A stretch of 32,000 bases of DNA from Rickettsia endosymbiont of Ceutorhynchus obstrictus (GCF_964026565.1 NZ_OZ032162.1:1544781-1576780), one strand, 5' to 3'; positions 5,127-31,621 are shown, counted from the stretch's first letter. Notes: generated by a model not told the origin, from the sequence alone. Program-made: numbers and translations.

Positions 5127-5735
5127 AGCTTTGTTGCGTGGCTCGAATTTTTGCAAAGTGTTCGGTGTCATACCGTGGCTTGACCGGCGTTGTTGCATGG
5201 ATGGTAAAAGCAGCAATATGTCATTCTAGCTAAAAGCGGGAATCTAGAAAAAACACTTAAAATAAACAAAATTATATAAAAATTTACTATATAATTCGCT
5301 TAAATATTTTCTGGATTCCCGCTTTTAGGGCGTTGTTGCATGGCTACCAGAATCGTCATTGCGAGGAGGCATTTATGCCGACGTGGCAATCCAGTTAAAC
5401 ATATTTTTATACTAAACTTGTTTAGTATTCTAATTAAATCCCTCATTACATTCGGGATAGCCTGGATTGCCGCAGCCACTTCGTGGCTTCGCAATGACGG
5501 GTTTTTTATTAATTTTCGAGCCATGCAACAACGCCCGCTTTTAGCTAGAATGACATCAAAAATTTGATCCATGCAACAACGCCGCCGCTGCAGGCGGCGT
5601 GGCAATCTAGGCTCTCCCGAATGTAATGAGGGATTAATTAGAATATTAAACAAGTTTAGTATAACTGGATTGCCACGTCGGGACTACGTCCCTCCTCGCC
5701 ATGACGGCATTTTTTGCAACGTTTTTGATCCACAT
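5127..5735. repeat. Mosaic of nested RPE-like elements between trmD and rplS
   Basis: Several module types recur here. The terminal modules are Rgc(g/t)ttgttgcRtgg, and the arm hairpins are tgtcattc...gggaatc(c/t)ag and gtcattgcgagg...ggcaatccag. The cores are of AT-rich and cccgaatgtaatgagggatt types. Confidence 0.9.
5329..5535. mobile_element. 207-bp RPE with GGCGTTGTTGCATGG / CCATGCAACAACGCC termini, nested in another RPE with a 9-bp duplication
   Basis: The direct repeat cgcttttag lies at 5320-5328 and 5536-5544. The host arm reads ctggattcc-cgcttttag-[insert]-cgcttttag-ctagaatgaca. An uninterrupted relative of the host lies at 21319-21501. Confidence 0.85.
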
Positions 5736-5759
5736 AATTTTTTACTAGGAGTTAAATAA

Positions 5760-6179
5760 ATGAATATTATTGACCAGTTTGAACAGGAACATATTTCCCG
5801 GCTTATCGCAAATAAAAAAATTCCTGCTTTTAACGCCGGTGATACCGTTAAAGTTACCGTCAAACTAATTGATAGATCAATAGAGAAAGACGGTAAGGAA
5901 AAAATAATTGAAAGATTTCAAGCTTACGAGGGCGTAGTAATCGCTAAAAGAAATAGAGGAGTTACTTCTTCTTTTCTAGTGCGTAAAATTAGCCATGGCG
6001 AAGGCGTAGAAAGGCGCTTTATGACCTACTCGCCGATAGTACACTCTATTGACGTAGTAAAATACGGCGTGGTTCGTCGTGCTAAGCTTTATTATTTAAG
6101 ACAAAGAAGCGGTAAATCAGCCAGGATTAAAGAAAGGTTTGTGCATGCTAGTAAGAACCCTAAAGCTAAAGCTGTTTAA
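5760..6179 (+). CDS. rplS: 50S ribosomal protein L19
   Basis: GGAG lies upstream of the ATG. The protein has L19 features ([39 protein letters not shown]) and sits directly downstream of trmD as in most bacteria. Confidence 0.95.
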
Positions 6180-6203
6180 TAGAAAATAGTATTATTGGAT
6201 GTA

Positions 6204-6316
6204 TGTCATTCCTGCGAAGGCAGGAATCCAGGTTTTTCTTTGTCATGCTGAAACAAGTTTAGCATGACGAGTATTAGATTGCCGCGTCTAGGCTTAAGCA
6301 CCTCCTCGCAATGACA
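6204..6316. repeat. 113-bp RPE-like element filling the convergent rplS/nth spacer and overlapping the nth 3' end
   Basis: tgtcattcctgcgaaggcaggaatccag + gtcatgctgaaacaagtttagcatgac hairpin + tagattgccgcg...cctcctcgcaatgaca. Confidence 0.85.
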
Positions 6317-6956
6317 TCATACTATAATACTCACAATATTCCCTAATCGGACAAATAGCACATTCCGGTTTTCTGGCTTTACAAATATATCGCCCGTGTA
6401 ATACCAACCAGTGATGGGCATGTGCCAGCCATTTCTTACCGATAATTTGCAATAATTCGGCTTCCACTTTTTCGGGACTATTACCTTTGGCAAGCCCTAG
6501 CCTTTTTGCTACTCTAAATACATGAGTATCAACGGCTATGGTTGGCTGCTGAAATAAACAATTTAATATAACATTTGCTGTTTTTCTGCCTACTCCCGGC
6601 AATTTAATTAATTCTTCAAAGCCGTGCGGTACGCGGCTGTGATAATTATTTATTAGTAGGCTACACAAAGAAATTATATTTTTTGCTTTAGCGTTAAATA
6701 ACCCGATAGATTTGATATAATTTTTTAGCCCTTCTTCGCCGAGCCGTAAGACTTTCTCCGGCGTGTCGTAAACCTCGAATAAGGATTTCGTCGCTAAATT
6801 TACCGATATATCAGTAGCCTGCGCCGATAATATTACCGCTACCAATAAAGTAAAATCATTCTTATATTCTAATTCCGTTTTAGGATTTTCATTATTATCG
6901 CTTAAAATTTTAAAAATTTTATCAACCCATAATTTATCTTTTATTTGTGCTTGCAT
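6294..6956 (-). CDS. nth: Endonuclease III (DNA-(apurinic/apyrimidinic site) lyase). The last ~7 codons and the stop lie inside an RPE arm.
   Basis: Helix-hairpin-helix [11 protein letters not shown], catalytic region VDTHVFRV, and the C-terminal 4Fe-4S cluster spacing [17 protein letters not shown]. Confidence 0.93.
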
Positions 6957-6997
6957 AATACGCTATTAAAATGGTAAAATTTGACTTTCAAGAATAA

Positions 6998-7140
6998 ACC
7001 TCTTGCATAACTTGCTTCTAAAGGTAATTTGTACGTCAAGCAGATAGCTGAATCCTCACGTTACTTGCGTGTACGTTGCGGTTCTGCGCTTCGTGTTTCC
7101 TTCAAATTCCTCTTTATTAGCTACGTTATGCAAGAGGTCT
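6998..7140. repeat. ~143-bp palindromic element of a distinct family in the nth/grx divergent spacer
   Basis: Terminal inverted repeat aacctcttgcataac ... gttatgcaagaggt. Interior segments (ctcacgttact, cttcaaattc) faintly resemble the RPE-1-like family. It is single-copy in this window. Confidence 0.6.
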
Positions 7141-7164
7141 AATTAAAGTTTACTAGGTTTTAAG

Positions 7165-7497
7165 ATGACTGAAAACAAAAATTTTGCCAATAAGAATTTT
7201 GAATTTATAAAAAATGAAATAGACAATAATAATGTTGTGCTATTTATGAAAGGCACTAAAGAGTCGCCTATGTGTGGGTTTTCCGGTAGTGTGGTTGCTA
7301 TTTTAGAAAAACTAGATGTAGAATTTCGCGATATTAACGTGCTTAGCGATCCGGAACTTCGGGAAGCTCTAAAAATTTTTAGCGATTGGCCGACCTTTCC
7401 ACAACTATATATTAAAGGTGAATTTATCGGCGGTTGCGATATAGCCAAAGAAATGTATCAAAGCGGCGAACTTGCAGCGTTGTTAGTGAGAGTTTAA
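7165..7497 (+). CDS. grxD: Monothiol (CGFS-type) glutaredoxin, Grx4/GrxD family
   Basis: Contains VVLFMKGTKESPMCGFSG, WPTFPQLYIKGEFIGGCDI. Length 110 aa. Confidence 0.9.
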   Translation: MTENKNFANKNFEFIKNEIDNNNVVLFMKGTKESPMCGFSGSVVAILEKLDVEFRDINVLSDPELREALKIFSDWPTFPQLYIKGEFIGGCDIAKEMYQSGELAALLVRV

Positions 7498-7552
7498 GAG
7501 ATATTTTCTCGCACCTGTATTAGTAGAATGCATTTTGAGCAAACATCCCCGA

Positions 7553-7984
7553 TGTCATTCCCGTGAAAACGGGAATCCAGGCTTTTCTTTGTCATGCTGA
7601 ACTTGTTTCAGCATCTCTTGTAGTAGATCCTGAAATAAATTCAGGATGACTTTTGAATATTTTTCTGGATTCCCGCCTGCGCGGGAATGACACCGAGGGC
7701 GTTTTTAACCATCCACGCAACAACGCTTGTAGCTTCTCGCAATGACGTTTTAGGTATCCACGCAACAACACCGGCTTGACCCACTACTGTACGAACGTTG
7801 AAAAAAGGCTGTGTCATGCCGTGACTTGATCACGGCATCCAGGAAAATAAAGCCATATTAGACTTATTTTAGAATCTTTTTATGATATTATAAGCTGGAC
7901 TGAAGTGGTCGTAGCCACGGAATGACAGAATTTTTACCTCTTTATTTAAACGTTCGTACAGTAGTGGGCTTGACCACGGTATGA
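7553..7984. repeat. RPE-like cluster between grx and the esterase gene
   Basis: A 140-bp palindromic unit at 7553-7692 belongs to the same family as 3457-3594, in opposite orientation. It is followed by ccacgcaacaacgc modules and then a host hairpin split by the nested element 7780-7968. Confidence 0.9.
7780..7968 (+). mobile_element. 189-bp TIR element (copy 2 of 3)
   Basis: Termini are cccactactgtacgaacgtt ... aacgttcgtacagtagtggg, flanked by cttga (7775-7779 and 7969-7973) inside ...caccgg-cttga-ccacggtat. Confidence 0.85.
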
Positions 7985-8020
7985 TATTGTATTTATAATA
8001 ACTATAAAAAATTAAAACCA

Positions 8021-8656
8021 ATGAATAAAAATTTAATATATCCCGAAATTAACAGTAAAGAGCTACCGCCGAAAAGACTAGCGGTATTATTGCACGGCGT
8101 CGGTTCCGACGGTCACGATTTGATAGGGCTGGTGCCGTATATCAAAGATGATTTACCGGATTGTTATTTTATTTCTCCGCATGGGGTTGAGCCTTACGAT
8201 ATGGCACCTTACGGGCGGCAATGGTTTAGTTTGCAAGATCGCACTCCTCATAAAATGCAAAAATTACTGGAAAATAATGTTGCGCTTCTTGCAGAGATAA
8301 TTAAGCAAAAACAAGCCGAGTTAAACTTGACTAATAAAGATACTATTATTATCGGTTTTTCTCAAGGTACGATGATCGGGCTATATTTAACGCTTGCTAG
8401 CCAAGAGCCGTTTTTATGTAGTATAGGTTTTTCAGGATTACTAGTTGCACCGACTGAATGCATTAATAAATCGACTCCTATTTGCTTAATTCATGGAGAG
8501 CTTGATGAGGTAGTTAGCATTAGCGAAATGGATAATGCCGCAAAATATTTATCCAAATATCAAATACCTTATGAAAGTCATAAAATTCCCAGGCTTGCCC
8601 ACTCTATTGACGCAAAAGGGCTAGAATTTGCAATTAATTTTATTAAAAAACAATAG
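8021..8656 (+). CDS. Alpha/beta hydrolase, phospholipase/carboxylesterase family
   Basis: [12 protein letters not shown] near the N-terminus, nucleophile elbow GFSQGTM (GxSxG), and later D and H candidates ([13 protein letters not shown]). About 210 aa, as in the carboxylesterase/lysophospholipase family. Confidence 0.8.
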
Positions 8657-8965
8657 CGTTGTTGCCTGGATTGGAAAAATCTATAAACTCGTCATTGCGA
8701 GCGAGGATTGTTGCGTGGCTTGACATAAGTAGCAGTATGTCATTCCTGCGAAGGCAGGAATCCAGGCTAAAAAGCCTTAGCTTATAAGGCTTTTTTCTAT
8801 ATAATTGTAAGTTATAGTTACATCTTTAGTTTAATTTTTCTGGATTCCCGCCTGCGCGGGAATGACATAAGGGGCAGCGGGAATGACATCGAAAATTCAA
8901 GCTATGCAATAACGCCTTTAGTCGCTCGCAATGACGCGGTGTTAATCAAGCTATGTAACAACACT
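8655..8965. mobile_element. 311-bp composite RPE inserted exactly at the esterase stop codon, with a 9-bp duplication
   Basis: Termini are agcgttgttgcctgg ... ctatgtaacaacact, with the direct repeat aaaaacaat at 8646-8654 and 8966-8974. A second RPE (about 8707-8925) sits inside the gtcattgcgagcga/tcgctcgcaatgac arm hairpin. Confidence 0.85.
8769..8796 (+). terminator. Candidate intrinsic terminator hairpin inside the RPE core downstream of the esterase gene
   Basis: An 11-bp stem aaaaagcctta/taaggcttttt with loop gctta, followed by a T run and preceded by an A run (potentially bidirectional). The stem is AT-rich, so it is weak. Confidence 0.35.
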
Positions 8966-8985
8966 AAAAACAATAGGATAAATGA

Positions 8986-10257
8986 ATGGATATTTTTGGC
9001 AATAAATTAGCAGATACTGATAGAGAAATTTACGAAATAATTAATAGTGAAAAGCATCGACAAAGAGACGTGGTTGAACTTATTGCCTCGGAAAATTTTA
9101 CTAGCCGTGCCGTGCTAGAGGCTCAAGGCTCGGTACTTACTAATAAATACGCTGAAGGTTATCCGGGGAAGCGTTTTTATAACGGTTGCGAGGAGGTAGA
9201 TAAGGCAGAGCTACTCGCCATAGAGCGAGCAAAAAAATTATTTAATTGTCAATATGCCAATGTTCAGCCTCATTCAGGCTCGCAGGCTAATCAAGCAGTT
9301 TTTTTGACGTTATTACAGCCGGGCGATACTATCCTTGGTATGTCTTTAGATAGCGGCGGGCATCTGACGCATGGAGCAGCTCCAAACATGTCCGGTAAAT
9401 GGTTTAACGCGGTTTTTTACAGCGTTGATAAAGACAGTTATTTAATCGATTATGATGAAATAGAAAAACTAGCAATATTACATAAACCAAAGCTAATTAT
9501 TGCCGGTTATTCCGCTTATCCAAGAAACTTAGATTTTGCCAAGTTCCGAGAAATTGCCGACAAAGTAGGTGCATATCTTATGGCAGATATTGCTCATATC
9601 GCAGGACTTGTGGCTGTTGGTGAGCATGCAAGCCCTTTGCCCTTTGCACATATTGTAACTTCCACTACCCATAAAACTTTGCGAGGTCCAAGAGGCGGCT
9701 TAATTTTATCGAACGACGAAGAGCTTGGGAAAAAAATCAATCTTGCTTTATTTCCCGGAATACAAGGCGGGCCGTTAATGCATATTATAGCTGCCAAAGC
9801 CGTAGCCTTCAAGGAAGCCTTACAGCCTGAATATAAAAACTACATAAAGCAGGTTTTAAGTAATGCTAAAGCTCTAGCGCAAAGCGTACAAGAAAGAGGA
9901 TATGATATTTTAACCAAGGGTACCGATAACCATATCGTGTTAATAGATTTACGCAAAGACGGTATCACCGGCAAAATAGCCGCCAACTCTTTAGATAGAG
10001 CAGGCATTACCTGCAATAAAAACAGCATCCCGTTTGATGAAACCTCGCCCTTTATTACCTCAGGAATTAGGCTCGGCAGCCCCGCTTGCACAACTAGAGG
10101 ATTTAAGGAACAAGAATTTATATTAGTCGGGCAAATGATCGCCGATATATTAGATAGCCTTAAAGACCATCAGAATAATAGCAAATGCGAGGAAAAAATT
10201 CACGCACAAGTAAAAAATTTAGTCAAAAACTTTCCTTTTTATAGTATACTCAAATGA
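8986..10257 (+). CDS. glyA: Serine hydroxymethyltransferase
   Basis: [38 protein letters not shown] and the PLP-lysine region [15 protein letters not shown] are diagnostic. Confidence 0.97.
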
Positions 10258-10301
10258 TGCAGAAGAGTATGTAGGTTTTTGGAAGTTGTAAAAGTATAGT
10301 T

Positions 10302-11030
10302 ATGAATACAAAATTAGTCTTTCCGGGATTTTCGTCAGAAGTAATTAATTTTCTTCAACAATTACAAGCTAATAATAACCGTCTATGGTTTAAAGAAAAT
10401 AAACATATATTTAAGGATTTATTAGAGCCGGCAGCTAATATATTTGTTGAACAAATGACTCAAAATCTTCAGGAAATTGCCGAAGAACCTATGCAAGGCA
10501 AGATTTTTCGTATTTATCGTGATGTACGCTTCAGTAAAAATAACACTCCTTACGACCCGTCTTTAAGAATAGGATTCACCCGCCTAAATACTAAGCAAGC
10601 TCAATGTAGTGATTACCCTATGTTTTATTTGTCACTACAACCGGACAAGCTTATTCTCGCTTGCGGTCTACGTGAGTTTTCTAAAAATGGGTTAATTGCT
10701 TACCGCGAAGCGATAATTGATAATCAAAGAGGGGCAAAGCTTGAAACTCTTCTCAACAGCTATATCAAGAAGAATTTCAAACTTGATCCGCCGGACTTAA
10801 AAAATATACCAAGCGGTTACGATAAAGATCATCCTAGAGAAAATTTATTGCGTCGTAAAAAGCTTGCTATATGGAGTTATTACTCCTCCCTAGATAACAT
10901 TACTACCCCGAATGCCTTAAAATTTTGTCTTGAACAATATCGTATCATGCAACCTATTTATGAGTGGCTAAAGATACTCACTAGCTTTAGAGAAGAATCA
11001 GCTATGCGTAAATATAGCTTCGCTTATTAA
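10302..11030 (+). CDS. DUF2461 (TIGR02453-like) family conserved hypothetical protein
   Basis: The FLxxLxxNNNRxWF N-terminus and the [17 protein letters not shown] motif are typical of that family as I remember it. Function is unknown. Confidence 0.7.
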
Positions 11031-11040
11031 GGTCTATATA

Positions 11041-11164
11041 CAGCGTCATCGCGATCGCTTGATACAAGCGAATTTTTCGGCATTCGCCTGTGCTCACGTA
11101 CTTTAGTACGGTAGCTTAGCTCTTCCTCAAATTCATCTTGTCTGAAACTTTCTGAATTTAGCCG
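11041..11164 (-). mobile_element. RPE-1-like repeat (124 bp) just downstream of the DUF2461 gene
   Basis: cagcgtcatcgcgatcgcttgatacaagcgaattttt...ctttctgaatttagccg is the reverse complement of the trmD and 30089 copies. TA dinucleotides flank both ends. Confidence 0.9.
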
Positions 11165-11252
11165 TACCTAGCGAAACCCGTCATTGCGAACGACTGGAGG
11201 CGTTGTTGCGTGGATGGTTAAATCGCTTAAAACTTGTCATACCGTGGTCAAA

Positions 11253-11441
11253 CCCACTACTGTACGAACGTTGAAAAAAGGCTGTGTCATGCCGTGACTT
11301 GATCACGGCATCCAGGAAAATAAAGCCATATTAGACTTATTTTAGAATCTTTTTATGATATTATAAGCTGGACTGAAGTGGTCGTAGCCACGGAATGACA
11401 GAATTTTTACCTCTTTATTTAAACGTTCGTACAGTAGTGGG
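11253..11441 (+). mobile_element. 189-bp TIR element (copy 3 of 3)
   Basis: Flanked by tcaaa (11248-11252 and 11442-11446) inside tgtcataccgtgg-tcaaa-ccggcattgttgcatgg. Its orientation relative to the host module is opposite to that of copy 2. Confidence 0.85.
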
Positions 11442-11494
11442 TCAAACCGGCATTGTTGCATGGCTCAAATTTTTGATGTCATTCTAGCTAAAGG

Positions 11495-11640
11495 CCATAA
11501 CTGTCCGAAGTTGAAAAATTAAGATTATTAAATAGTACTTTTTTTGCCGTTAATGCTAAAAATACTACTATTTTGATATATAATAGAGTGAAAAACTCAA
11601 ACAGTTTCTCTATTTATTTTTCAACTTCGGACAGTTATGG
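11495..11640. mobile_element. 146-bp MITE-like element with a perfect 25-bp TIR, nested in an RPE arm
   Basis: Termini are ccataactgtccgaagttgaaaaat ... atttttcaacttcggacagttatgg. The direct repeat ctaaagg lies at 11488-11494 and 11641-11647. Removing the insert and one repeat copy restores the arm tgtcattctagctaaaggcgggaatccag. It has no ORF and is single-copy in this window. Confidence 0.85.
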
Positions 11641-11954
11641 CTAAAGGCGGGAATCCAGATTTTTCTTTGTCATGCTGAACTTGTTTCGGCATCTCTTGCA
11701 AAATATCCTGAAATAAATTCAGGATGACTATTATTTTCTAGATTGCCGCGCTCCTTGCAGTCGCTCGCAATGACGATTATGGTAACCACGCAACAACGCC
11801 TCTTCGCGGGAATGACATACTGCTGCTTTTATCGAACCGTGCAATAATGCCGGTCAAGTCACGGTATGACACCATACTTGTAATAACTATAATGCGGTAA
11901 ATTATGAGCCATGCAACAACACCGGCACCTTACAATGCCTCGGTATAACAAATT

Positions 11955-20519: not shown

Positions 20520-20595
20520 ATAATCTCCTAATAAAACTGTTGCCAACGTTATTTTAATAACAAAAATGAGCTATTTAGTATTCTCTAAATTAACC

Positions 20596-20803
20596 GGCGT
20601 TGTTGCATGGCTCGATCTTACCCCGTCATTGCGAGGATATGCTAGCTATCTCCGTGGCAATCGAGTCTTTGTCATGCTGAACAAGTTTTGCGCATCTCTT
20701 GCAAAATATCCTGAAATAAATTCAGGATGACTATTATTTTCTAGATTGCCGCGCTCCGCGCAAATGCTCGCAATGACGATTCCGGTAGCCATACAACAAA
20801 GCC
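20596..20803. mobile_element. 208-bp RPE with GGCGTTGTTGCATGG-type termini and an 8/9-matching 9-bp flanking duplication
   Basis: Termini are ggcgttgttgcatggctcga ... agccatacaacaaagcc. The flanks are aaattaacc (20587-20595) and aaattaact (20804-20812). Confidence 0.8.
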
Positions 20804-20833
20804 AAATTAACTATAATATTTTCTAATTGTGTA

Positions 20834-20958
20834 CAGCTAAATTCAGAAAGATTTAGACAAGATGAATTTAAAGGTGAGCCTGCGCTAGCCGTTAATAATA
20901 CGTGAACACAGGCGAATCCAGAAAAATTCGCTTGTATCAAGCTTTCTGAATTTAGCTG
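20834..20958 (+). mobile_element. RPE-1-like repeat, variant with a symmetric 17-bp TIR
   Basis: cagctaaattcagaaag ... ctttctgaatttagctg. The first ~110 bp differ from the copy at 30089 by one substitution and one 1-nt indel. Confidence 0.9.
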
Positions 20959-21318
20959 TAATAACCCTAAAAAATAAAATATCTATAAGCTTCTTCTATA
21001 CAAAAGAAATTTACAGAAACTTATAGATTTAACTTTAAAAAATTGGTTATACTAAACTATTACGAAACATAATTTTATATAAAAATAATATTGAGTTGCC
21101 GATTATATCAGCATTTTTATCAATATATTTTTTTACTTTTAACTAATTAATATTACAAAAATTTATTTTTATAATTTATTTTATTCTTTAGAAAAATCAG
21201 CATTTTATATTTAAATATATAATTTACTAAATTTTAATAATTTACAAAAGTGACTTTATTTACTTTAGCAAGTTAAATAATCTAAGTGCTATGCTATAGA
21301 GTTTGCTATCCTTAAATG

Positions 21319-21501
21319 GACGTTGTTGTATGGCTCGATAAAGCAGCAGTATGTCATTCCTAGCTAAAGGCGGGAATCTAGAAAAAATACTTAAAATAAA
21401 CAAACTTATATAAAAATTTACTATATAATTCGCTTAAATGCTTTTCCGGATTCCCGTTTTCACGGGAATGACATCAAAAATTCGAGCCATGCAACAACGC
21501 C
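21319..21501. mobile_element. 183-bp RPE with an AT-rich core and a 9-bp duplication
   Basis: Termini are gacgttgttgtatgg ... ccatgcaacaacgcc, with the direct repeat ccttaaatg at 21310-21318 and 21502-21510. Confidence 0.85.
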
Positions 21502-21551
21502 CCTTAAATGCGGATAGGGCGACAAATTATCATAAAGCTGATTAAAATAGA

Positions 21552-21585
21552 ACAATCAAGGGTAAGGGGACTTAACCTTGATTGT
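21552..21585 (-). terminator. Candidate terminator/attenuator hairpin in the rplL-rpoB spacer
   Basis: A perfect 10-bp stem acaatcaagg/ccttgattgt with a 14-nt loop. On the minus strand it is followed by tctattttaat. It lies about 180 nt downstream of the rplL stop. The large loop and weak T tract lower confidence. Confidence 0.3.
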
Positions 21586-21762
21586 AAATTAAAGGCTCAA
21601 ATAATAGCGAAAAGCTAACATTTTTAATGGCAATAACAGATTTAATAATTTTAAATAAAAATAACTATTTGAGGTAAGCCAAGATTTTTTTAATAAAAAA
21701 TTTTATAAATTTAATATTAAAAAAATACGGCTACTAATTTATAATTAAGAACTAAATCTTAA

Positions 21763-22134: not shown

Positions 22135-22164
22135 AGTTTTTTCCTTTTTACTTTAATGTCTTAA

Positions 22165-22674: not shown

Positions 22675-22697
22675 TTTTTAATTCTCCTTGAATAGTA

Positions 22698-23420
22698 TTA
22701 CAATATACTGGCTAAATCTATTTTTACTGATGGTCCCATAGTAGAAGACAAATATACCGCCTTTAAATAATTTCCTTTAACACCGGCAGGCTTTGCTTTA
22801 ATTACCGCAGTGATTAAAGCTTGTAAATTTTTTCGTAAATCTTGCTCCGGAAAAGATAATTTTCCGACGCCTGCATGGATTATACCAGCTTTCTCTGCTC
22901 TATATTCCACTTGTCCGCTTTTGGCATTTTTTACGGCAGTCGTAATATCTAATGTTACGGTACCAAGCTTTGGATTAGGCATTAAACCTTTAGGTCCTAA
23001 AATTCTTGCAACCGAACCGATGACAGACATCATATCCGGTGTTGCTATGCAGACATCAAAATTAATTTTACCGGCTTTAATTTCTTCAATAATCTCTACC
23101 GAGCCGACCATATCTGCTCCAGCTTTCTTCGCCTCTTCTATTCTTTCTTCTTTGCAAATAACTGCAACTTTCACGGTCTTACCGGTACCGGCAGGCAAAG
23201 TAATAACTCCTCGTACCATCTGATCGGAATGCCGAGGATCTACACCTAATTTCATTACTATTTCTAAAGTTTCGTTAAACTTTACATATGATGCAGATTT
23301 TAAAAATTCAACGCCGCTTGTTAAATTATATAAAGCGGATGAATCTACTTTTTGCCTTGCTTCTCTTATTTTTTTACCGCCGCTAGCTTTAGCGGTAACA
23401 ATTTTTTTATTTATTGACAT
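22698..23420 (-). CDS. rplA: 50S ribosomal protein L1
   Basis: L1 motifs are present ([29 protein letters not shown]). The gene starts 4 bp after the rplK stop. Confidence 0.97.
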
Positions 23421-23424
23421 ATGA

Positions 23425-23859
23425 TTAATTCCCTACAACTTCCAATCCCATGGATTCAGCAGTACCGCGAATAATTTTCGCCGCTGCATTAATATCGTTA
23501 GTATTAAGATCAACTATTTTAAGTTTAGCAATCTCACGACAGTCATCCATAGTAACTTTCCCGATCACGACTTCTTTTTTAGTAGCTTTCGATCCTTTTT
23601 CAATTTTGGCATATTGCTTTAAATAATAAGATGCCGGCGGCGTCTTAATTTTAAAAGTAAAACTACTATCTTCATAAACGGTAATCACGGTCGGTAAAGG
23701 CGTGTTAGGCGCAATACTTTGTGTCGCGGCATTAAAAGCTTTACAAAATTCCATAATATTTACCTTCCGCTGACCGAGCGCAGGTCCGATAGGCGGAGCA
23801 GGAGCAGCCTTAGCTGCCGGAATAATTAAATTAATATAACCTTTTATTTTTTTCGCCAT
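23425..23859 (-). CDS. rplK: 50S ribosomal protein L11
   Basis: [24 protein letters not shown] is the L11 signature region. AAGGA lies upstream of the ATG. Confidence 0.97.
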
Positions 23860-23947
23860 TGATAAATCCTTACTTTATTCACGTATGTTATTTGTGAGTT
23901 TTATTACTTTTTTTATATCATTCCAGACGTTTTTACTTATCGCTGCC

Positions 23948-24451
23948 GACTTTGTTGCATGACTCGATACAAGCAACAGCATGTCATTCCTAGCTAAAGG
24001 CCGGGCTTTGTTGCACGGCTCTAAAAAAGTGCCGTATGTCATTCCCGCGCAGGCAGGAATCTAGCCGTATTTATGTCATGCTGAACTTGTTTCAGCATCT
24101 TTTAGTAGATCCTGAAAAAATTCAGGATGACTTAAAAAGTATTTTTCTGGATTCCCGTTTTCACGGGAATGACATCAAAAATTCGAGCCATGCAACAACG
24201 CCGAAGGCAATGCTCGCGTGGATACCGGAATCGTCATTGCGAGGAGGGACGTAGTCCCGGCGCGGCAATCCAGAAAATAATAATTTTCATAGCATTTTTT
24301 GCTATTTTTTTCTCCAGATTGCCACGTCGATGCTCCGCATCTCCTCGCAATGACGGGGTAAGATCGAGCCATACAACAACACCCAACCTTCACGAGAATG
24401 ACAGAGAGCATACTTAACCTGTCCACACAACAACGCCGCCTCGCAATGGCG
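23948..24451. repeat. RPE-like cluster (at least three elements) between nusG and rplK
   Basis: Three parts are recognisable. A truncated left end runs gactttgttgcatgactcga...tgtcattcctagctaaagg. A full element follows, from ggctttgttgcacggctc to tcgagccatgcaacaacgcc, with the gtcatgctgaa/atcctgaaaaaattcaggat core. A gtcattgcgaggagg-armed element then carries a different short core (atagcattttttgctat). Confidence 0.9.
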
Positions 24452-24505
24452 ATTTTTAACCTCGTCAATTTCTTCTTTTACAAAACTGTATAGTACTAAT
24501 TTATT

Positions 24506-25084
24506 TTAGTTATTTTTTTTCACTTGCGTAAAATTTAATTCTATCGGAGTTGCTTTACCGAAAATTGATATTGAAACCCTTAACTTATTTTTTTCTTGAT
24601 CAACTTCTTCGACCATACCTGCGAAAGTTTCAAATGGTCCCTCTGTAACTATAACCGACTCGCCGATTTCAAATAATTTAAAATCCTTAGCTTCTTTAGC
24701 TTCTGATTCCAACTTACTAAAAATATTCTGTATTTCGCTTTCAGTAAGAGCTTGTGGAGTAGTTTTACTTCCTAAAAACCCGGTTACCCCCGGTATATTT
24801 TTTACTAAATGCCAAGATTTATCGCTCATATTCATCTTTATCAAGATGTAGCTAGGCATAAATTTTTTTTCAGTCTTAACGTTTTTGCCTCGCTTAACCT
24901 CAGGCACTCCGAAAACCGGTACTAATATATCTTCAAAAAATTCAGACATTTTTTGCTTAAGTATCTTATCGAGTATCATTTGTCTTATGCGTTTTTCAGA
25001 ACCCGATAATGTATGAATAACGTACCAACGCATTTCATGTTTTTGAGAATCAGTTAACGTATTACTAATGCTTTGCTCTGTCAC
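24506..25084 (-). CDS. nusG: Transcription termination/antitermination factor NusG
   Basis: GTG start with GGGA upstream. RWYVIHTLSGSEKR marks the NGN domain and GESVIVTEGPFETFAGMVEEVD the KOW motif. The gene follows secE. Confidence 0.95.
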   Translation of the reverse strand: MTEQSISNTLTDSQKHEMRWYVIHTLSGSEKRIRQMILDKILKQKMSEFFEDILVPVFGVPEVKRGKNVKTEKKFMPSYILIKMNMSDKSWHLVKNIPGVTGFLGSKTTPQALTESEIQNIFSKLESEAKEAKDFKLFEIGESVIVTEGPFETFAGMVEEVDQEKNKLRVSISIFGKATPIELNFTQVKKNN

Positions 25085-25103
25085 AATTTTCCCTATTTAC
25101 CGG

Positions 25104-25304
25104 CTATTTAGCAATGTTAAGTAAAATTTGTATTATATTATGTATAGTGTAATCTAGTACTAAACAAATTAAGCTAAAAATAAAAACCGCGACCACTACT
25201 ATAGATGTTGAAGCAATTAGTTCTTTTTTAGCGGGCCAAACAACTTTATAAGTCTCTTGTTTGACTTGCTCAAAAAATTTATAGATTTTATTTTCTTTAA
25301 ACAT
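25104..25304 (-). CDS. secE: Preprotein translocase subunit SecE
   Basis: 66 aa with the conserved [19 protein letters not shown], followed by a single TM helix. It lies between tRNA-Trp and nusG. Confidence 0.9.
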
Positions 25305-25349
25305 ATCCTAAATTGCTAATTCCAAACTATAGCTTCAACCATTAAGGTA

Positions 25350-25563
25350 CAGCGTCATTCATAAAGCTTGATACAAGCAAATTTTTCCGGATTTGCCTGT
25401 GTTCACGTACTCTAGTACGGTAGCTTAGCTCACCATTAAATTCATCTTGTCTAAACCTTTCTGAATTTAGCTGTATATACACTAAATTTTGCAAGTTTCG
25501 CTTGTGCTCACGTTATTTAGTATACGCGTAGCTTAGCTCGCTCTGAAATTTAATGTCTATACC
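25350..25563 (-). mobile_element. RPE-1-like repeat (25350-25473) followed by a degenerate partial second copy (about 25484-25563)
   Basis: cagcgtcattcataaagcttgatacaagc...ctttctgaatttagctg is flanked by TA on both sides. The downstream partial copy retains gcttgtgctcacgt...gtagcttagctc. Confidence 0.85.
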
Positions 25564-25610
25564 TTAATGCTTTTTGCTATACAAATCAATTTTTTACTTC
25601 TGCCTAAAGG

Positions 25611-25686
25611 TGGCAGGAGCGACAGGCATCGAACCCGCAACCTCCGGTTTTGGAGACCGGCGCTCTACCGATTGAGCTACACTCCT
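25611..25686 (-). tRNA. tRNA-Trp (anticodon CCA), CCA encoded
   Basis: The reverse complement folds as acceptor AGGAGTG/CGCTCCT, D arm GCTC-AATCGGTA-GAGC, anticodon stem CCGGT/ACCGG with loop CTCCAAA, and T loop TTCGATG. Length 76 nt. This is the conserved position upstream of secE. Confidence 0.9.
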
Positions 25687-25752
25687 ATCATATTTTAAAA
25701 AATAAATCAATATATATTTATTAAAATCCAACTATAAAGGTCTCTAAAGTCC

Positions 25753-25985
25753 GTCATTGCAAGGAGGCACAGGCGTTGTTGCATGGCTCGAATTTTCGAT
25801 GTCATTCCTAGCTAAAGGCGGGAATCCAGACTTTTCTTTGTCATGTTGAACTTGTTTCAGCATCTGCTTGTATTAGATCCTGAAATAAATTCAGGATGAC
25901 TATAATTTTCCGGATTCCCGTTTTCACGGGAATGACACCGAAAATTCGAGCCATGCACCACCACCACTAATGCTTCACAATGGCG
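25753..25985. repeat. RPE-like element(s) between fusA and tRNA-Trp, ending 4 bp from the fusA stop
   Basis: A degenerate outer hairpin gtcattgcaaggagg...cttcacaatggcg encloses an element from ggcgttgttgcatggctcga to tcgagccatgcaccaccacc. That inner element has the tgtcattcctagctaaaggcgggaatccag arm and the gtcatgttgaa/atcctgaaataaattcaggat core. Confidence 0.9.
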
Positions 25986-25989
25986 TTTT

Positions 25990-28089
<2,100 letters not shown>

Positions 28090-28101
28090 TTTTAGTTTAC
28101 C

Positions 28102-28584
28102 TTATTTCATTTTTTTAGGACTAAAATGAGAGAAAGCTTTATTAGCTTCAGCCATTTTATGAGTATCTTCTTTCTTTTTGATAGCGGCGCCTCTATTATT
28201 TGATGCTTCAAATAATTCTTCAGCTAACTTATCGATCATCATTTTTTCGGATCGCTTTAATGCGGCATTAATAATCCAACGTGACGCCAGAGCATACCCT
28301 CTTCTTTCATCCACGGGAGCCGGTACTTGGTAATTAGCTCCGCCCACTCTAACCGAAGTCACTTCAAGATAAGGCTTTACATTATTCATGGCATTATTAA
28401 AAGCCTCATAAGGTTCTACCTTATGTTTTCTTTCCATCTTATTAAAGGCTGAATAAACTATTTTTTCCGCAAGAGATTTTTTACCTTCTTTCATAATATT
28501 ATTAATAAATCTTGACAGCAAAGTACTGTTATATTTCATATCAGGTAAAATTACTCGCTTTTCCGCGGCGTGACGACGTGACAT
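28102..28584 (-). CDS. rpsG: 30S ribosomal protein S7
   Basis: The S7 sequence includes GKKSLAEKIVYSAF and EVTSVRVGGANYQVP. Order rpsL-rpsG-fusA. Confidence 0.97.
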   Translation of the reverse strand: MSRRHAAEKRVILPDMKYNSTLLSRFINNIMKEGKKSLAEKIVYSAFNKMERKHKVEPYEAFNNAMNNVKPYLEVTSVRVGGANYQVPAPVDERRGYALASRWIINAALKRSEKMMIDKLAEELFEASNNRGAAIKKKEDTHKMAEANKAFSHFSPKKMK

Positions 28585-28607
28585 TTATTTTTCTCTCTAT
28601 CTATTAA

Positions 28608-28997
28608 TTATTTTTTTGCAGCTACGGCTTGTTTACGGGAAGCACCGTAACGTGAACGGCCTTGCTTACGCCCTTTAACACCTTGAATGTCATAAGCACC
28701 AAGTACTATATGATATTTCACCCCCGGAAGATCAGGAACCTGTCCGCCTCTAACTAATACTCTATCATGCTCTTTTACGCTATGTTTTTCACCCGGTATA
28801 TAAGCATTAACGCTTCTTTTATTACTTAAACGTACCGTGGCAATTTTACGGAGAGCAGAGTTAGGCTTTTTAGGGGTCACCGTTTTGACTACAAGACAAA
28901 CACCGCTTTTAAAAGGATTAGCCTCTAAGGCAGGAGATTTTGTTTTACGAGTTTTTGATTTTCTCCCAAAACGTACTAGTTGATTATATGTCGGCAT
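28608..28997 (-). CDS. rpsL: 30S ribosomal protein S12
   Basis: I place the start at ATG 28997 (MPTYNQLVR..., the conserved S12 N-terminus), with GGAG about 10 nt upstream. The 10-codon extension in the ORF track starts from a TTG. The [10 protein letters not shown] motif is present. Confidence 0.96.
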
Positions 28998-29051
28998 TAA
29001 AAAAACACTCCAAAAAACTTTATTCAAAATATACTGTTCGTAAATGAAGAG

Positions 29052-29256
29052 TTGTCACCTCGTGACTTGTTGCACGGCTTCCAGAATCGTCATGGCGAGG
29101 CGCCTCTTGGCGCCGTGGCCATCCAGTTTTTGTCATGCTGAACTCGTTTCAGCATCTCTTATAGTTATATCCTGAAATAAATTCAGGAGGACTATTATTT
29201 TCTAGATTGCCACGCTCCTTGCAGTCGCTCGCAATGACGTTTGGGATATCCTCGCA
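29052..29256. repeat. RPE-like element between the ABC permease gene and rpsL
   Basis: The left side is gacttgttgcacggc...gtcatggcgaggcgcctcttggcgccgtggccatccag. The core is of the gtcatgctgaa/atcctgaaataaattcagga type. The right arm is ctagattgccacgctccttgcagtcgctcgcaatgac. Confidence 0.88.
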
Positions 29257-29313
29257 CCTCAGACAGCACTAAATTTAAATTATAATTACTTTTTCCATAA
29301 AAGCAAGAACGTT

Positions 29314-29970
29314 TTAATTAACAATTAGCTTTTTCTCTATTATTTTTGCTATATTGCTGATTATCATTACTAAAATGTAATAACAAAAAGCCGCAACAAG
29401 TGCGGGCAAAAAATAATTATACGTTTCACCCGACACTATGCTCGCCCTACGCATTAAATCCATCTCGCCGAGCGTCGAAATAATTGCCGATTCTTTTATC
29501 AAATTAACCAGCTCGTTTATTAGCGAAGGAAATATATTTTTAATTGCCTGCGGTAAAATTATATCTTTCATTATTAACGCCTTAGGTATAGCAAGAGCTT
29601 CCGCCGCCTCAACTTGCCCTTTATCGACGGCATTAATTCCCGCTCTAATTATTTCCGAAACATATGCCCCAGAATTAAGGGAAAAAGCCGTAACTCCGGC
29701 GACGAAAACGCTAAATTTAATACCGATTAAATAAGGTAAACCGAAATAAATAATACTTAACTGAATAAGTAAAGGTGTGCCACGAAAAATAGAAGTATAA
29801 AAATTTGCAAATAACCTTAATATAAAATTTTTGCTTACTTTACAAATTGCTAATAATATTCCTATTAGCAAGCCTAATATCACGGCAATCACACTATATT
29901 TTAAAGTTATTAACGTTCCTTTAACAATAAAAAGGATATGAGGAGAAAATTTTATAAAATATTCAAACAT
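29314..29970 (-). CDS. Amino-acid ABC transporter permease (His/Glu/Gln/Arg/opine, HisM/GlnP-like family)
   Basis: About 5 predicted TM segments. Contains FRGTPLLIQLSIIYFGLP and the EAA loop VEAAEALAIPKALIMKDIILPQA. Confidence 0.88.
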   Translation of the reverse strand: MFEYFIKFSPHILFIVKGTLITLKYSVIAVILGLLIGILLAICKVSKNFILRLFANFYTSIFRGTPLLIQLSIIYFGLPYLIGIKFSVFVAGVTAFSLNSGAYVSEIIRAGINAVDKGQVEAAEALAIPKALIMKDIILPQAIKNIFPSLINELVNLIKESAIISTLGEMDLMRRASIVSGETYNYFLPALVAAFCYYILVMIISNIAKIIEKKLIVN

Positions 29971-30088
29971 TATAATTTTGGAATAAAAATAAGTGGGGAT
30001 AAGATAACATCTTGAAATATTTTTTGCAAGGAATCTAATAACTAGCTAGGGCATCGTCAAGTTAAGTTTATGTGCGTTAGATATTATA

Positions 30089-30211
30089 CAGCTAAATTCA
30101 GAAAGATTTAGACAAGATGAATTTAAAGGTGAGCCTGCGCTAGCCGTTAATAATACGTGAGCACAGGCGAATCCAGAAAATTCGCTTGTATCAAGCGATC
30201 GAGAGGACGCT
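30089..30211 (+). mobile_element. RPE-1-like repeat (123 bp)
   Basis: cagctaaattcagaaagatttagacaagatgaatttaaaggtgagcctgcgctagccgttaataatacgtgagcacaggcgaatccagaaaattcgcttgtatcaagcgatcgagaggacgct. Confidence 0.9.
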
Positions 30212-30238
30212 ATACTATCAATATATTACCTATTGATT

Positions 30239-30504
30239 AGCGTTGTTGCATGGCTCGATAAAAGCAGCAGTATGTCATTCTAGTTAAAGGCGGGAATCCA
30301 GACTTTTTATTGTCATGCTGAACAAGTTTTGCGCATCTTTTTTAGTAGATCCTGAAATAAATTCAGGATGACTTAAAAATATTTTCTGGATTCCCGCCTT
30401 CGCGGGAAGGCGTTGTTGCGTGGATCGGAAAACAGTGATTTTTTGACCATCTTTACAAAGCCTCGGGGGAATGACATCGAAAATTCAAGCCATGCAACAA
30501 CACC
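30239..30504. mobile_element. 266-bp RPE with a 9-bp duplication, its right arm interrupted by a ~58-bp solo end of another RPE
   Basis: Termini are agcgttgttgcatgg ... ccatgcaacaacacc, with the direct repeat ctattgatt at 30230-30238 and 30505-30513. The right arm reads ctggattcccgccttcgcgggaa[ggcgttgttgcgtggatcgg...cctcgg]gggaatgaca. Confidence 0.85.
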
Positions 30505-30666
30505 CTATTGATTAGTATAATTGCTAAGAATTCTTGCTCCTTTTTTAGAGGCTATTTTACCATAATTAAAAATTATTTCTAAAATATAATATAAATTATA
30601 TATGCTTTTCTAAAGAATTATCTCTAAACTATTTAATTCCATTAATAAATTGAGGTATAAGTTAGT

Positions 30667-31227
30667 ATGTCGTATATAAAATATATAGTTTTATGGTTAA
30701 TTATATTAACTAATGTTAATCTTTATGCTGATAGCAAAGATATAATTTCCGGCAAGGAAACTTTAAAAGTACCGGTAAGTAACGAACATCTTCGTACTCT
30801 TAATATAGCTTCTACTCTTCTTATTTCTTGTGTAGATTTTCGTCTAAAAAGTGAAACCGTTGAGTTTATGAACAAATTAAATTTACTAGAAGATTATGAT
30901 GAAGTATCGCTTCCCGGCTCTTCCCTTGCTTTAGTTAACAATCAATATCTTTATTGGGGTAAAACAATTGAAGATGTTATTGAGATTTTACAAAAACTAC
31001 ATAATATTAAACAAGTTATCTTTCTCGATCATCGTGAATGCGGAGCGTATAAACTTCTTGTTGGAGCAGAATATCTTACAACGCCTAAAAAAGAAACAGA
31101 TATACATACGGAAACTTTAAATAAAGCACGCAAAATCATTAACAAAAAATTTCCAAATTTGAAAGTCTATACTTTTTTAATGGGACTTGACGGGGTAATA
31201 GAGCAAGTTTACGATAGACCCAACTAA
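30667..31227 (+). CDS. Hypothetical exported protein with beta-carbonic-anhydrase-like zinc-ligand motifs
   Basis: The N-terminus [23 protein letters not shown] resembles a Sec signal peptide. C55-x-D57-x-R59 (SCVDFR) and H122-x-x-C125-G (DHRECGA) fall at roughly the spacing of beta-class CA active sites. There is no other recognisable similarity. Confidence 0.6.
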
Positions 31228-31322
31228 TATATAATGAGTTATGTAACCCCAACTATGGATAAGTTGTAGCTTAAAAATTTATCCATAGTTCGCGTTATGT
31301 ATGGTCATTGCCTCATTTATAC

Positions 31323-31479
31323 GGCGTTGCTGCATGGCTCATAATTTACCGTATTATGGTTATTATAAGTACGATGTCATACCGTGGCATGACACCGAAA
31401 CACTTTGCAAAAATTCGAGCCATGCAACAAAGCCTCCGGTCGCTCGCAATGACGATTCCGGTAGCCACACAACAACGCC
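31323..31479. mobile_element. 157-bp RPE with a 9-bp duplication
   Basis: Termini are ggcgttgctgcatgg ... ccacacaacaacgcc, with the direct repeat catttatac at 31314-31322 and 31480-31488. Confidence 0.85.
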
Positions 31480-31621
31480 CATTTATACTTAACTTGACAA
31501 TGCCGCTCGCATAGATTATGATACGTCCGTAGAGGATTTTAATACATTATGGGCAAAAACGAAGATTTTTGCTGCGTGATTCTTTAATTCTCACCGGAGC
31601 TAGTTTCAGAATGGGGGTAGT

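What the first reader, a model, noticed from the sequence alone, without database searches (positions are those of the whole stretch)
5320..31488. Six RPEs with GGCGTTGTTGCATGG...CCATGCAACAACGCC termini are each flanked by a 9-bp direct duplication
Each of the following elements has the same kind of 15-bp terminal inverted repeat and is bracketed by a locus-specific 9-mer that occurs once on each side.
- 5329-5535: cgcttttag / cgcttttag
- 8655-8965: aaaaacaat / aaaaacaat
- 20596-20803: aaattaacc / aaattaact (8 of 9)
- 21319-21501: ccttaaatg / ccttaaatg
- 30239-30504: ctattgatt / ctattgatt
- 31323-31479: catttatac / catttatac

The 9-mers are unrelated to each other and AT-rich. In two cases the pre-insertion sequence can be reconstructed: an RPE arm at 5320, and the esterase-glyA junction at 8646. 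This is the signature of transposase-mediated, MITE-like insertion with a fixed 9-bp staggered cut. It is not what recombinational spread or replication slippage would leave. No transposase is encoded in the window. I do not remember target-site duplications being an established property of these RPE families, so this deserves a literature and genome-wide check.
Basis: seen in the sequence. Interest (0 to 1): 0.75.

Follow-up and report, generated by a model that had tools for sequence, protein, structure and literature searches.

The report
Rickettsia RPEs behave as IS903-type MITEs
Six short palindromic repeats (RPEs) in this Rickettsia endosymbiont genome are real insertions, each flanked by a 9-bp target duplication, and their ends match those of IS903-type insertion sequences, which gives a concrete and testable mechanism for how these repeats spread.

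Summary
All six elements sit at the stated coordinates. Five have exact 9-bp flanking direct repeats and one has 8 of 9.

The signal appears only at k = 9. It is absent from displaced-flank and shuffled controls. It recurs in 11 further elements from at least five other Rickettsiaceae or Rickettsiales genomes.

Relatives hold empty sites with a single copy of the 9-mer for e21319 and e8655. A reciprocal case exists, and e5329 restores a perfect palindrome when removed.

New here: the RPE end consensus GGCGTTGTTGCATGGCTCGA matches the terminal inverted repeat of 1.05-1.1 kb IS elements. These encode IS5-family, IS903-group transposases that align over 99% of their length with IS903B. IS903B and three lineages of the closest IS clade make 9-bp duplications. 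Several copies insert into the loop of a REP-like hairpin (GGCTTGAYC), which is also a recurrent RPE target.

The best reading is that these RPEs are MITEs moved in trans by an IS903-group DDE transposase.

Not found: any such transposase in about 0.5 Mb of Rickettsia sequence examined. Many RPE copies lack duplications, and one IS clade with identical ends shows none.

The searchable literature lists the RPE target duplication as unknown.

The parts
5320..5544 (.). e5329: a 207-bp RPE/MITE (5329-5535) with 9-bp target duplications CGCTTTTAG at 5320-5328 and 5536-5544. It is nested in the right arm of another RPE.
   Evidence: Removal restores GATTCCCGCTTTTAGCTAGAATGAC, the exact reverse complement of the host's left arm. 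Folds as a full-length hairpin, z = -10.5.
5186..5583 (.). Host RPE that carries e5329. It has perfect 15-bp TIRs and no 9-bp duplication of its own. Its left flank is GGCTTGACC, the preferred hairpin-loop target of the related IS clade.
8646..8974 (.). e8655: a 311-bp composite RPE (8655-8965) with doubled TIR modules at each end and duplications AAAAACAAT at 8646-8654 and 8966-8974. It lies between the esterase stop codon and the glyA start.
   Evidence: The empty site in L248 reads ...atcaAGAAACAATaggttagactaATG. It is present in the 99% strain L246 and in L247.
20587..20812 (.). e20596: a 208-bp RPE (20596-20803) with duplications AAATTAACC / AAATTAACT (8 of 9), in the rpoB-rplL spacer.
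   Evidence: The relative L231 lacks this RPE but has a different ~300-bp segment between two TCTAAATTAA copies, so the comparison is ambiguous.
21310..21510 (.). e21319: a 183-bp RPE (21319-21501) with duplications CCTTAAATG, in the rpoB-rplL spacer.
   Evidence: Clean empty site in the Polydrusus endosymbiont: L231 ~1490-1510 reads gctatcttaaatgcagatagg, a single copy. Hairpin z = -6.1.
30230..30513 (.). e30239: a 266-bp RPE (30239-30504) with an internal extra TIR at 30409 and duplications CTATTGATT. It lies upstream of the carbonic-anhydrase-like gene.
   Evidence: Absent from L231 and L232, but the target region is too diverged to read the 9-mer.
31314..31488 (.). e31323: a 157-bp RPE (31323-31479) with duplications CATTTATAC and a doubled right-end TIR module. 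It is an internally deleted copy.
   Evidence: Strain L002 has 64 more internal bases. The orthologous insertion in L231 at 10602-10833 has CGTTTATAC / CCTTTATAC, so the insertion is shared and older.
3400..4242 (.). Cluster of RPE fragments and TIR modules around a tRNA gene, with no intact TIR pair plus duplication.
7540..8000 (.). Cluster of RPE fragments with right-end TIR modules at 7713-7772, without duplication.
11199..11923 (.). Nested RPE cluster. The pair 11449-11851 is flanked by GGTCAAACC / GGTCAAGTC (7 of 9), which is the GGCTTGAYC hairpin-loop target read on the other strand.
23948..24437 (.). Nested RPE cluster without duplications. It is partly replaced by different sequence in the 99.4%-identical strain L002.
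25772..25965 (.). RPE next to the 3' end of fusA, with no duplication.
29054..29246 (.). Truncated RPE inserted at the loop of a small hairpin (gtcacctcgtgacttg...). L231 has a different RPE at the same point with duplications GACTTGATC / GGCTTGATC. Strain L002 has only a longer variant of the small hairpin, carrying ~43 extra bases in its right arm.

Best explanation
These RPEs are non-autonomous transposons (MITEs). Each is a 150-310 bp palindromic element bounded by ~20-bp terminal inverted repeats with consensus GGCGTTGTTGCATGGCTCGA.

Inferred mechanism: a DDE transposase of the IS5 family, IS903 group, supplied in trans, binds the two ends. It cuts the target with a 9-bp stagger and joins the element. 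Repair of the stagger leaves the 9-bp direct duplication.

Targets are either AT-rich spacer DNA or the loop of pre-existing small RPE/REP hairpins, core GGCTTGAYC. Insertion into hairpin loops builds the nested RPE piles seen in the window.

Shown:
- The insertions are real, from empty sites.
- The duplication is fixed at 9 bp.
- The ends are identical to those of IS903-group IS elements.
- Those IS elements make 9-bp duplications and several of them insert into the same hairpin-loop target.

Inferred:
- An IS903-group enzyme did the moving in Rickettsia.
- That enzyme is, or recently was, present in this lineage.
For: Insertion and duplication:
- Six of six claimed elements are verified.
- 17 elements across at least six genomes have flush 9-bp repeats, against 0 in the controls.
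- The signal appears only at k = 9.
- Single-copy empty sites exist for e21319, for e8655, and reciprocally for L231 1007-1235.
- Removing the nested e5329 restores a perfect palindrome.

Link to an IS family:
- The exact 17-mer GGCGTTGTTGCATGGCT is the terminal repeat of 1080-1104 bp IS elements in Gemmatimonadota and other MAGs.
- Their 318-aa product matches NCBIfam NF033579, IS5 family transposase, at 4e-74. It also matches Pfam DDE_Tnp_1_5 plus DDE_Tnp_1.
- It aligns over 99% of its length with the IS903B transposase at 35% identity, E = 1e-50.
- The consensus of 34 RPE ends matches the IS consensus at 18 of the first 22 positions (exactly over the first 18 for the IS right end) and matches IS903B at 16 of 22.

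9-bp duplications by these IS elements, seen directly:
- IS903B in two E. coli plasmids: ATTAAATTT and GTTTTCAAA.
- The 1050-bp IS in L253: perfect GGCTTGACC. In L251: 8 of 9. In L252: 7 of 9.
- The IS in L255: TACCAGGTT / TACCAGGTC.

Shared target:
- L253 sits in the hairpin gtcaccccgtGGCTTGACCacggggt.
- The Rickettsia RPE at L231 8813-8993 sits in gtcacctcgtGACTTGATCacggggtgac.
- The same core flanks window elements at 5177-5185 and at 11449/11851.

Precedent: MITEAba12/ISAba12 has 9-bp duplications, identity confined to the TIRs, and only 36 of 90 copies with a detectable duplication (PMC6382973).
Against: - No IS903-group transposase gene or fragment was found in the window or in about 0.5 Mb of Rickettsia and Rickettsiales sequence fetched. 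tblastn with two divergent queries gave nothing, even at E <= 1. The cognate partner in Rickettsia is therefore unproven.
- Only 12 of 68 adjacent TIR pairs carry a duplication.
- Fourteen listed copies (about 12 independent insertions) of the Gemmatimonadota-type IS, whose ends are identical to RPE ends, show no duplication at any offset. This includes copies on 4.4-4.8 Mb contigs. I cannot explain this.
- No clean insertion polymorphism with a duplication was seen among the ~99%-identical strains. Current activity is therefore not shown.
- The e20596 site in L231 is ambiguous.
Confidence: 0.75

Rival explanations
1. The RPEs are MITEs, but they are moved by a transposase of another family that also makes 9-bp duplications, such as IS4/IS10/IS50 or IS1. 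On this view the end similarity to IS903-group elements is incidental.
For: No cognate transposase was found in Rickettsia sequence. A 9-bp duplication is not unique to the IS903 group (general knowledge of IS families).
Against: The RPE end is identical over 17-18 bp to ends of IS elements that encode IS903-group transposases in several phyla. An exact 17-mer shared by chance is about 6e-11 per comparison. The preferred hairpin-loop target is shared as well. From my own knowledge, IS4- and IS1-type ends (CT..., GGTAATG...) do not resemble the RPE end.
Confidence: 0.08
2. All the insertions are ancient relics. The transposase was lost long ago, and present-day RPE diversity comes only from recombination, gene conversion and deletion among copies.
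For: No transposase was found. Copies are only 82-90% alike. Most copies lack duplications. Among ~99% strains the differences are segment replacements and an internal 64-bp indel, not clean insertions.
Against: e21319 and e8655 are absent from relatives that are 91-96% identical in flanking genes or 90% identical in the esterase protein, and they keep perfect 9/9 duplications. The Polydrusus endosymbiont has its own lineage-specific insertion with a perfect duplication. Transposition therefore continued after these lineages split. This rival concerns timing, not the mechanism of origin.
Confidence: 0.12
3. The 9-bp repeats do not come from transposition. They belong to the element, arise by chance in AT-rich DNA, or are produced by slippage or recombination at hairpins.
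For: Some flanks are RPE-derived and recur in different genomes (CGCTTTTAG, GCTTTTAGC, GCTAAAAGC). This could suggest that a composite is being copied as a unit.
Against: The 9-mers differ from site to site. Controls give zero. The length is sharply 9. Empty sites hold exactly one copy. The recurring loop targets are offset by 1 bp between genomes, which indicates independent hits on a hotspot.
Confidence: 0.03

Closest known systems
Rickettsia palindromic elements (RPE; Ogata et al. 2000, 2002)
   Same: Short (about 100-300 bp), highly palindromic, multi-copy repeats of Rickettsia. They occur in spacers and next to or inside genes. They include the characteristic internal motifs GTCATTCC...GGAATCCAG and CGTCATTGCGAG. 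They fold as long hairpins.
   Different: In the literature I could search, RPEs have TIRs but the target duplication is marked '?', and no transposase is assigned (PMC2229807; PMC10969869). Here a fixed 9-bp duplication, empty sites and an IS family with the same ends are shown. I could not assign the copies to RPE-1 to RPE-10, because the original papers are not held and NCBIfam gave no RPE-domain match.
MITEAba12 / ISAba12 of Acinetobacter (PMC6382973)
   Same: A small AT-rich MITE with 16-bp TIRs and 9-bp duplications. Identity to the parent IS (about 1.02-1.05 kb, single DDE transposase) is confined to the TIRs. Only a minority of copies (36 of 90) keep a detectable duplication.
   Different: For MITEAba12 the parent IS is co-resident and transposition was observed in the laboratory. 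Here no parent IS was found in the host genome and no transposition has been observed. RPEs are full-length palindromes and nest into each other.
IS903 / IS903B (IS5 family, IS903 group)
   Same: Ends start with GGC. IRL GGCTTTGTTGAATAAATCGA matches the RPE consensus at 16 of the first 22 positions. It makes a 9-bp duplication in AT-rich targets. Its transposase is homologous end to end with those of the IS elements that carry RPE-type ends.
   Different: IS903B is an autonomous 1057-bp IS of enterobacteria. Positions 11-17 of its TIR differ from the RPE end. The much closer IS relatives are uncharacterised elements from MAGs and metagenomes (L143, L249-L255, L169 and others).
IS elements that target REP sequences (Tobes and Pareja 2006, PMC1525189) and CGTC-tagged REPs, which include RPE-4 and RPE-6 (Di Nocera et al. 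2013, PMC3733652)
   Same: The IS clade found here inserts into the loop of small REP-like hairpins. The Rickettsia elements contain and insert into CGTC-type and GTCAC-type hairpins.
   Different: As far as I could find, those reports do not involve IS903-group elements with these ends or RPE-type MITEs. I did not read PMC1525189 in detail.

Membership tests
MITE (non-autonomous derivative of a DDE-type IS) | Terminal inverted repeats at both ends | tested here: met
   15-20 bp TIRs on all six elements. Consensus of 34 ends is GGCGTTGTTGCATGGCTCGA.
MITE (non-autonomous derivative of a DDE-type IS) | Target-site duplication of fixed length, with a single copy in empty sites | tested here: met
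   9 bp only; 17 elements against 0 in controls; empty sites.
MITE (non-autonomous derivative of a DDE-type IS) | Small, multi-copy, with no transposase gene inside | tested here: met
   157-311 bp. 34 TIR hits in 32 kb. No ORF with transposase similarity.
MITE (non-autonomous derivative of a DDE-type IS) | A full-length IS with the same TIRs in the same genome or lineage, supplying transposase in trans | tested here: inconclusive
   IS elements with the same TIRs exist in other phyla and in AT-rich metagenome contigs. None was found in about 0.5 Mb of Rickettsia sequence. The whole genomes could not be scanned.
Cognate of the IS5 family, IS903 group | IS ends begin with GGC and resemble the IS903 IR | tested here: met
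   RPE consensus against IS903B IRL is 16 of 22. Against IS elements that encode IS903-group transposases it is 18 of the first 22 for the consensus, and exact over the first 18 for the right end.
Cognate of the IS5 family, IS903 group | 9-bp target duplication | tested here: met
   RPEs. IS903B. IS elements of L251, L253 and L255. Exception: Gemmatimonadota-type copies show none.
Cognate of the IS5 family, IS903 group | Transposase with DDE_Tnp_1_5 plus DDE_Tnp_1 architecture acts on these ends | not testable with these tools
   The architecture is shown for the IS elements that carry these ends. Binding or cleavage of RPE ends needs an experiment.
Rickettsia palindromic element (RPE) | Palindromic repeat of about 100-300 bp, dispersed in Rickettsia genomes | tested here: met
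   Hairpin z-scores of -6.1 and -10.5. Copies occur in Rickettsia endosymbionts, R. asembonensis and R. tamurae.
Rickettsia palindromic element (RPE) | Assignment to a named RPE family (RPE-1 to RPE-10) by consensus or encoded peptide | tested here: inconclusive
NCBIfam scans of the translated elements gave no RPE-domain match.

The most novel reading that the evidence does not exclude
[quoted passage not shown] On this reading, at least the large class with GGCGTTGTTGCATGG ends consists of MITEs of a widespread, uncharacterised clade of IS903-group insertion sequences that home to the loops of REP-like hairpins. That would explain the nested RPE piles and the link between small CGTC/GTCAC hairpins and long RPEs. 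It would also mean that transposition continued after present-day insect-endosymbiont Rickettsia lineages diverged, which implies a transposase source in or near those genomes. Because the duplication is three codons long, an insertion keeps the reading frame whenever the element length is a multiple of three.
Probability: 0.55. Interest if true: 0.7.

Novelty: new member of a known kind. Interest (0 to 1): 0.62.

Why it matters
RPEs are a textbook oddity. They are repeats that invaded rickettsial genes and RNAs, and how they move has never been explained. A 2008 review table lists their target duplication as unknown.

Three results turn that question into a testable one. The duplication is fixed at 9 bp. 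Empty sites exist in relatives. The ends are identical to those of IS903-group elements. The direct test is to express a matching transposase and ask whether it moves an RPE.

The result also gives annotators a rule for delimiting RPE copies, namely TIR plus 9-bp duplication, and for dating insertions between endosymbiont lineages. It also points to an unstudied, REP-targeting IS903-group clade found across several phyla.

Tried and rejected
- Viral contig scan with the 15-mer returned only single chance matches and was uninformative.
- L003 (Halotydeus endosymbiont, about 87% identity) was too diverged in the spacers to serve as an empty site.
- A profile search for the transposase in the 5.8-billion-protein collection listed only the best 120 of 7939 hits. 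All were Gemmatimonadota-like or unnamed, so it could not reveal a Rickettsia copy.
A DNA search with an RPE against plasmids found nothing.
- For the alphaproteobacterial relatives ISAli17 and ISSpo9, the ends and duplications could not be defined from three copies.
- Four contigs of the Pyrocoelia endosymbiont end 92-138 bp inside a repeated element that starts with the TIR. This is a candidate long element. It could not be extended, and a metagenome scan for its sequence found nothing.
- Cluster look-up of the AT-rich transposase of L250 returned no organism names.
- Rfam found only two tRNAs. NCBIfam gave no RPE-domain hit for translated elements.
- I checked whether element lengths are enriched for multiples of three. 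They are not (lengths).

Full report
**Source of the window.** It is 99.99% identical to OZ034920.1 (GCA_964030775.1), a 1.65-Mb chromosome. Its proteins are named as 'unclassified Rickettsia'. It carries trmD, rplS, nth, an esterase, glyA, rpoC, rpoB, the rplL-rplK cluster, nusG, secE, fusA, rpsG and rpsL. G+C is 37.7%. The closest other species available is the Rickettsia endosymbiont of Polydrusus tereticollis (OZ032142.1, locus L231). It is 91-96% identical in the flanking genes.

**The observation.** The motif GGCGTTGTTGCATGG (up to 3 mismatches) occurs 34 times, against 0.31 expected. The six elements lie at exactly the stated coordinates. Five have exact flush 9-bp direct repeats and one has 8 of 9. 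They share about 20 bp of terminal inverted repeat. Their interiors are built from different palindromic modules. Two that I folded form full-length hairpins, with z = -6.1 and -10.5, as expected of RPEs. Other TIR pairs in the window have no duplication.

**More than chance.** I pooled 389 kb from the window and from loci of other Rickettsiaceae and Rickettsiales genomes: the Polydrusus, Pyrocoelia and Halotydeus endosymbionts, R. asembonensis, R. tamurae and Rickettsiales MAGs.
- 17 TIR pairs have flush 9-bp repeats with at most one mismatch. Five controls with flanks displaced outward by 4-20 bp gave 0 each.
- Shuffling the right flanks among pairs predicts 0.27 where 15 were seen.
- Scanning repeat lengths 5-13 gives 12 pairs at k = 9 and 0-1 at every other length.

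**Real insertions.**
- Removing e5329 and one 9-mer from its host RPE (5186-5583) yields an arm that is the exact reverse complement of the host's left arm.
- In L231 the site of e21319 reads gctatcttaaatgcagatagg, one copy of the 9-mer, with 92-94% identical sequence on both sides.
- In L248, a contig whose esterase is 90% identical, the esterase stop codon and the glyA start are 9 bp apart.
- Reciprocally, L231 carries an RPE (1007-1235) flanked by ACAATAACC on both sides where the window has a single (gt)AATAACC.
- e31323 is shared with L231 at the same site with the same duplication, so it is older.
- e30239 is absent from L231 and L232, but the target has diverged.
- The e20596 site in L231 holds a different ~300-bp segment between two TCTAAATTAA copies. 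I count that comparison as ambiguous.

**The link to an IS family.** A scan of one genome per species with the 17-mer GGCGTTGTTGCATGGCT returned Rickettsia loci. It also returned many Gemmatimonadota, Myxococcota and other MAG contigs in which the 17-mer is followed by a conserved sequence.
- In those contigs the motif is the terminal inverted repeat of 1080-1104 bp elements.
- These encode a 318-aa protein that matches NCBIfam NF033579 (IS5 family transposase) at 4e-74, and Pfam DDE_Tnp_1_5 plus DDE_Tnp_1.
- That protein aligns over 99% of its length with the IS903B transposase at 35% identity, E = 1e-50.
- The consensus of 34 RPE ends is GGCGTTGTTGCATGGCTCGA. The IS consensus is GGCGTTGkTGCATGGCTCsG. 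IS903B is GGCTTTGTTGAATAAATCGA.
- Two simple IS903B insertions in E. coli plasmids are 1057 bp long and flanked by 9-bp duplications, ATTAAATTT and GTTTTCAAA.

**A closer IS clade with the same duplication and target.** I used the transposase of L143, a 1118-bp contig of 48% G+C that is itself one IS with RPE-type ends. It comes from the same co-assembly as a Rickettsiales MAG that carries TIR-plus-duplication MITEs (L113). A metagenome scan with it found 1050-bp relatives.
- L253 has ends GGCGTTGTTGCATG... and a perfect duplication GGCTTGACC.
- L251 (35% G+C) has 8 of 9, and L252 has 7 of 9.
- The right flank of L249 is again GGCTTGACC.
- A further AT-rich lineage (L250, L255) has ends GGCCTTGTTGCACGGCT and the duplication TACCAGGTT / TACCAGGTC.
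- In L253 the target is the loop of the hairpin gtcaccccgtGGCTTGACCacggggt.
- The Rickettsia RPE at L231 8813-8993 sits in the loop of gtcacctcgtGACTTGATCacggggtgac, with duplications GACTTGATC / GGCTTGATC.
- The same core flanks the host RPE at window 5177-5185 and the pair at 11449/11851.

The ends, the duplication length and a preferred target are therefore all shared between these IS elements and the RPEs.

**What is missing.**
- tblastn with the Gemmatimonadota-type and the AT-rich transposases found nothing in the window or in any Rickettsia locus fetched, about 0.5 Mb, even at E <= 1. The partner in Rickettsia is inferred, not shown.
- Only 12 of 68 adjacent TIR pairs have duplications. 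Many of the others are inner TIR modules of elements with doubled ends, sit inside nests, or are truncated.
- Among ~99%-identical strains the RPE differences are segment replacements and one internal indel, not clean insertions.
- Fourteen listed Gemmatimonadota-type IS copies (two pairs of which are not independent) show no duplication at any offset. I cannot explain this.

**Comparison with what is known.** In the library I could search, the Rickettsia genome papers only count RPEs. Delihas (2008) lists RPE with TIRs present and the target duplication as '?'. A 2024 MITE review treats RPEs as MITE-like without giving a duplication or a parent IS. No paper couples Rickettsia RPEs with IS903 or IS5. 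The original RPE papers are not held, so an earlier mention cannot be excluded. The closest documented analogue is MITEAba12/ISAba12.

**Verdict.** The observation and its interpretation both stand, and the interpretation can be made more specific: these RPEs behave as MITEs of the IS903 group. As a kind of element this is a new member of a known class. It also proposes a mechanism for a long-standing open question, and that mechanism can be tested directly.

Noticed in passing
window 20834-20958; partial copies at 30089, 11164 and 25473, and a 1-mismatch match at 4608 inside trmD; L231 ~725-845: A second, unrelated palindromic repeat of about 125 bp, with TIR CAGCTAAATTCAGAAAG and flanked by TA on each side (gtgTA|CAGCT...AGCTG|TAata). 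This looks like a Tc1/mariner (IS630)-type MITE. It sits at different positions in the window and in the Polydrusus endosymbiont.
   Followed up: partly
window 29054-29246, L002 (reverse complement) ~10447-10542, L231 8790-9020: One spot between rpsL and the permease gene has three states. L002 has a longer variant of the small GTCACCCCGTG...CACGGGGTGAC hairpin (~43 extra bases in its right arm) and no TIR-bearing RPE. L231 has the short hairpin plus an RPE with a 9-bp duplication. The window has a different, truncated RPE joined at the same point. This suggests a hotspot hit more than once, or replacement by recombination.
   Followed up: partly
window 24272-24422 and 31386, compared with L002: Between strains 99.4% identical, an RPE segment is replaced by unrelated RPE sequence. 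In addition, e31323 lacks 64 central bases that are present in L002.
   Followed up: partly
L132, L157, L169, L177, L182, L185, L187, L199, L216, L236-L240: IS903-group IS elements (1080-1104 bp) of Gemmatimonadota-type MAGs have ends identical to RPE ends but no target duplication in any of 14 listed copies. These are about 12 independent insertions, because L182/L199 are one insertion in two MAGs and L238/L239 share a left flank as an inverted duplication about 5 kb apart.
   Followed up: partly
L153, L170, L181, L193 (Rickettsia endosymbiont of Pyrocoelia pectoralis): Four contigs end 92-138 bp inside the same repeated element, which begins with the RPE TIR: GGCGTTGTTGCATGGCTCGGAAGAATTAGAAGAG...AAGATATG. 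This is a candidate for a longer, possibly autonomous element in a Rickettsia genome. It could not be extended.
   Followed up: partly
L115, L151, L184, L206: Contigs labelled 'MAG: Klebsiella pneumoniae' are 65-67% G+C where measured (L151). They carry an IS903-group IS with RPE-type ends, so they are very likely mis-binned.
   Followed up: no
L250 and L255 (GCA_013573015.1 and a sister assembly with roughly 1 million contigs): An AT-rich IS903-group IS with a 333-aa transposase inserts repeatedly into the motif AAAAGGTACCAGGTCACTTTT. The host organism is unknown.
   Followed up: partly
window 25990-28089: fusA encodes 699 aa here and in the close strains, but 690 aa in the Polydrusus and Halotydeus endosymbionts. 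An RPE (25772-25965) abuts its 3' end, so the extra residues may be RPE-derived.
   Followed up: no
L245 1-4273 (immediately upstream of the window): A very large ORF, whose product is called at 3696 aa with no Pfam hit, lies just upstream of the window.
   Followed up: no
window 8654-8656: The esterase stop codon TAG is now made of the last base of the left duplication plus the first two bases (AG) of the RPE. The empty site has the native TAG at the same place, so the insertion left the protein unchanged.
   Followed up: yes
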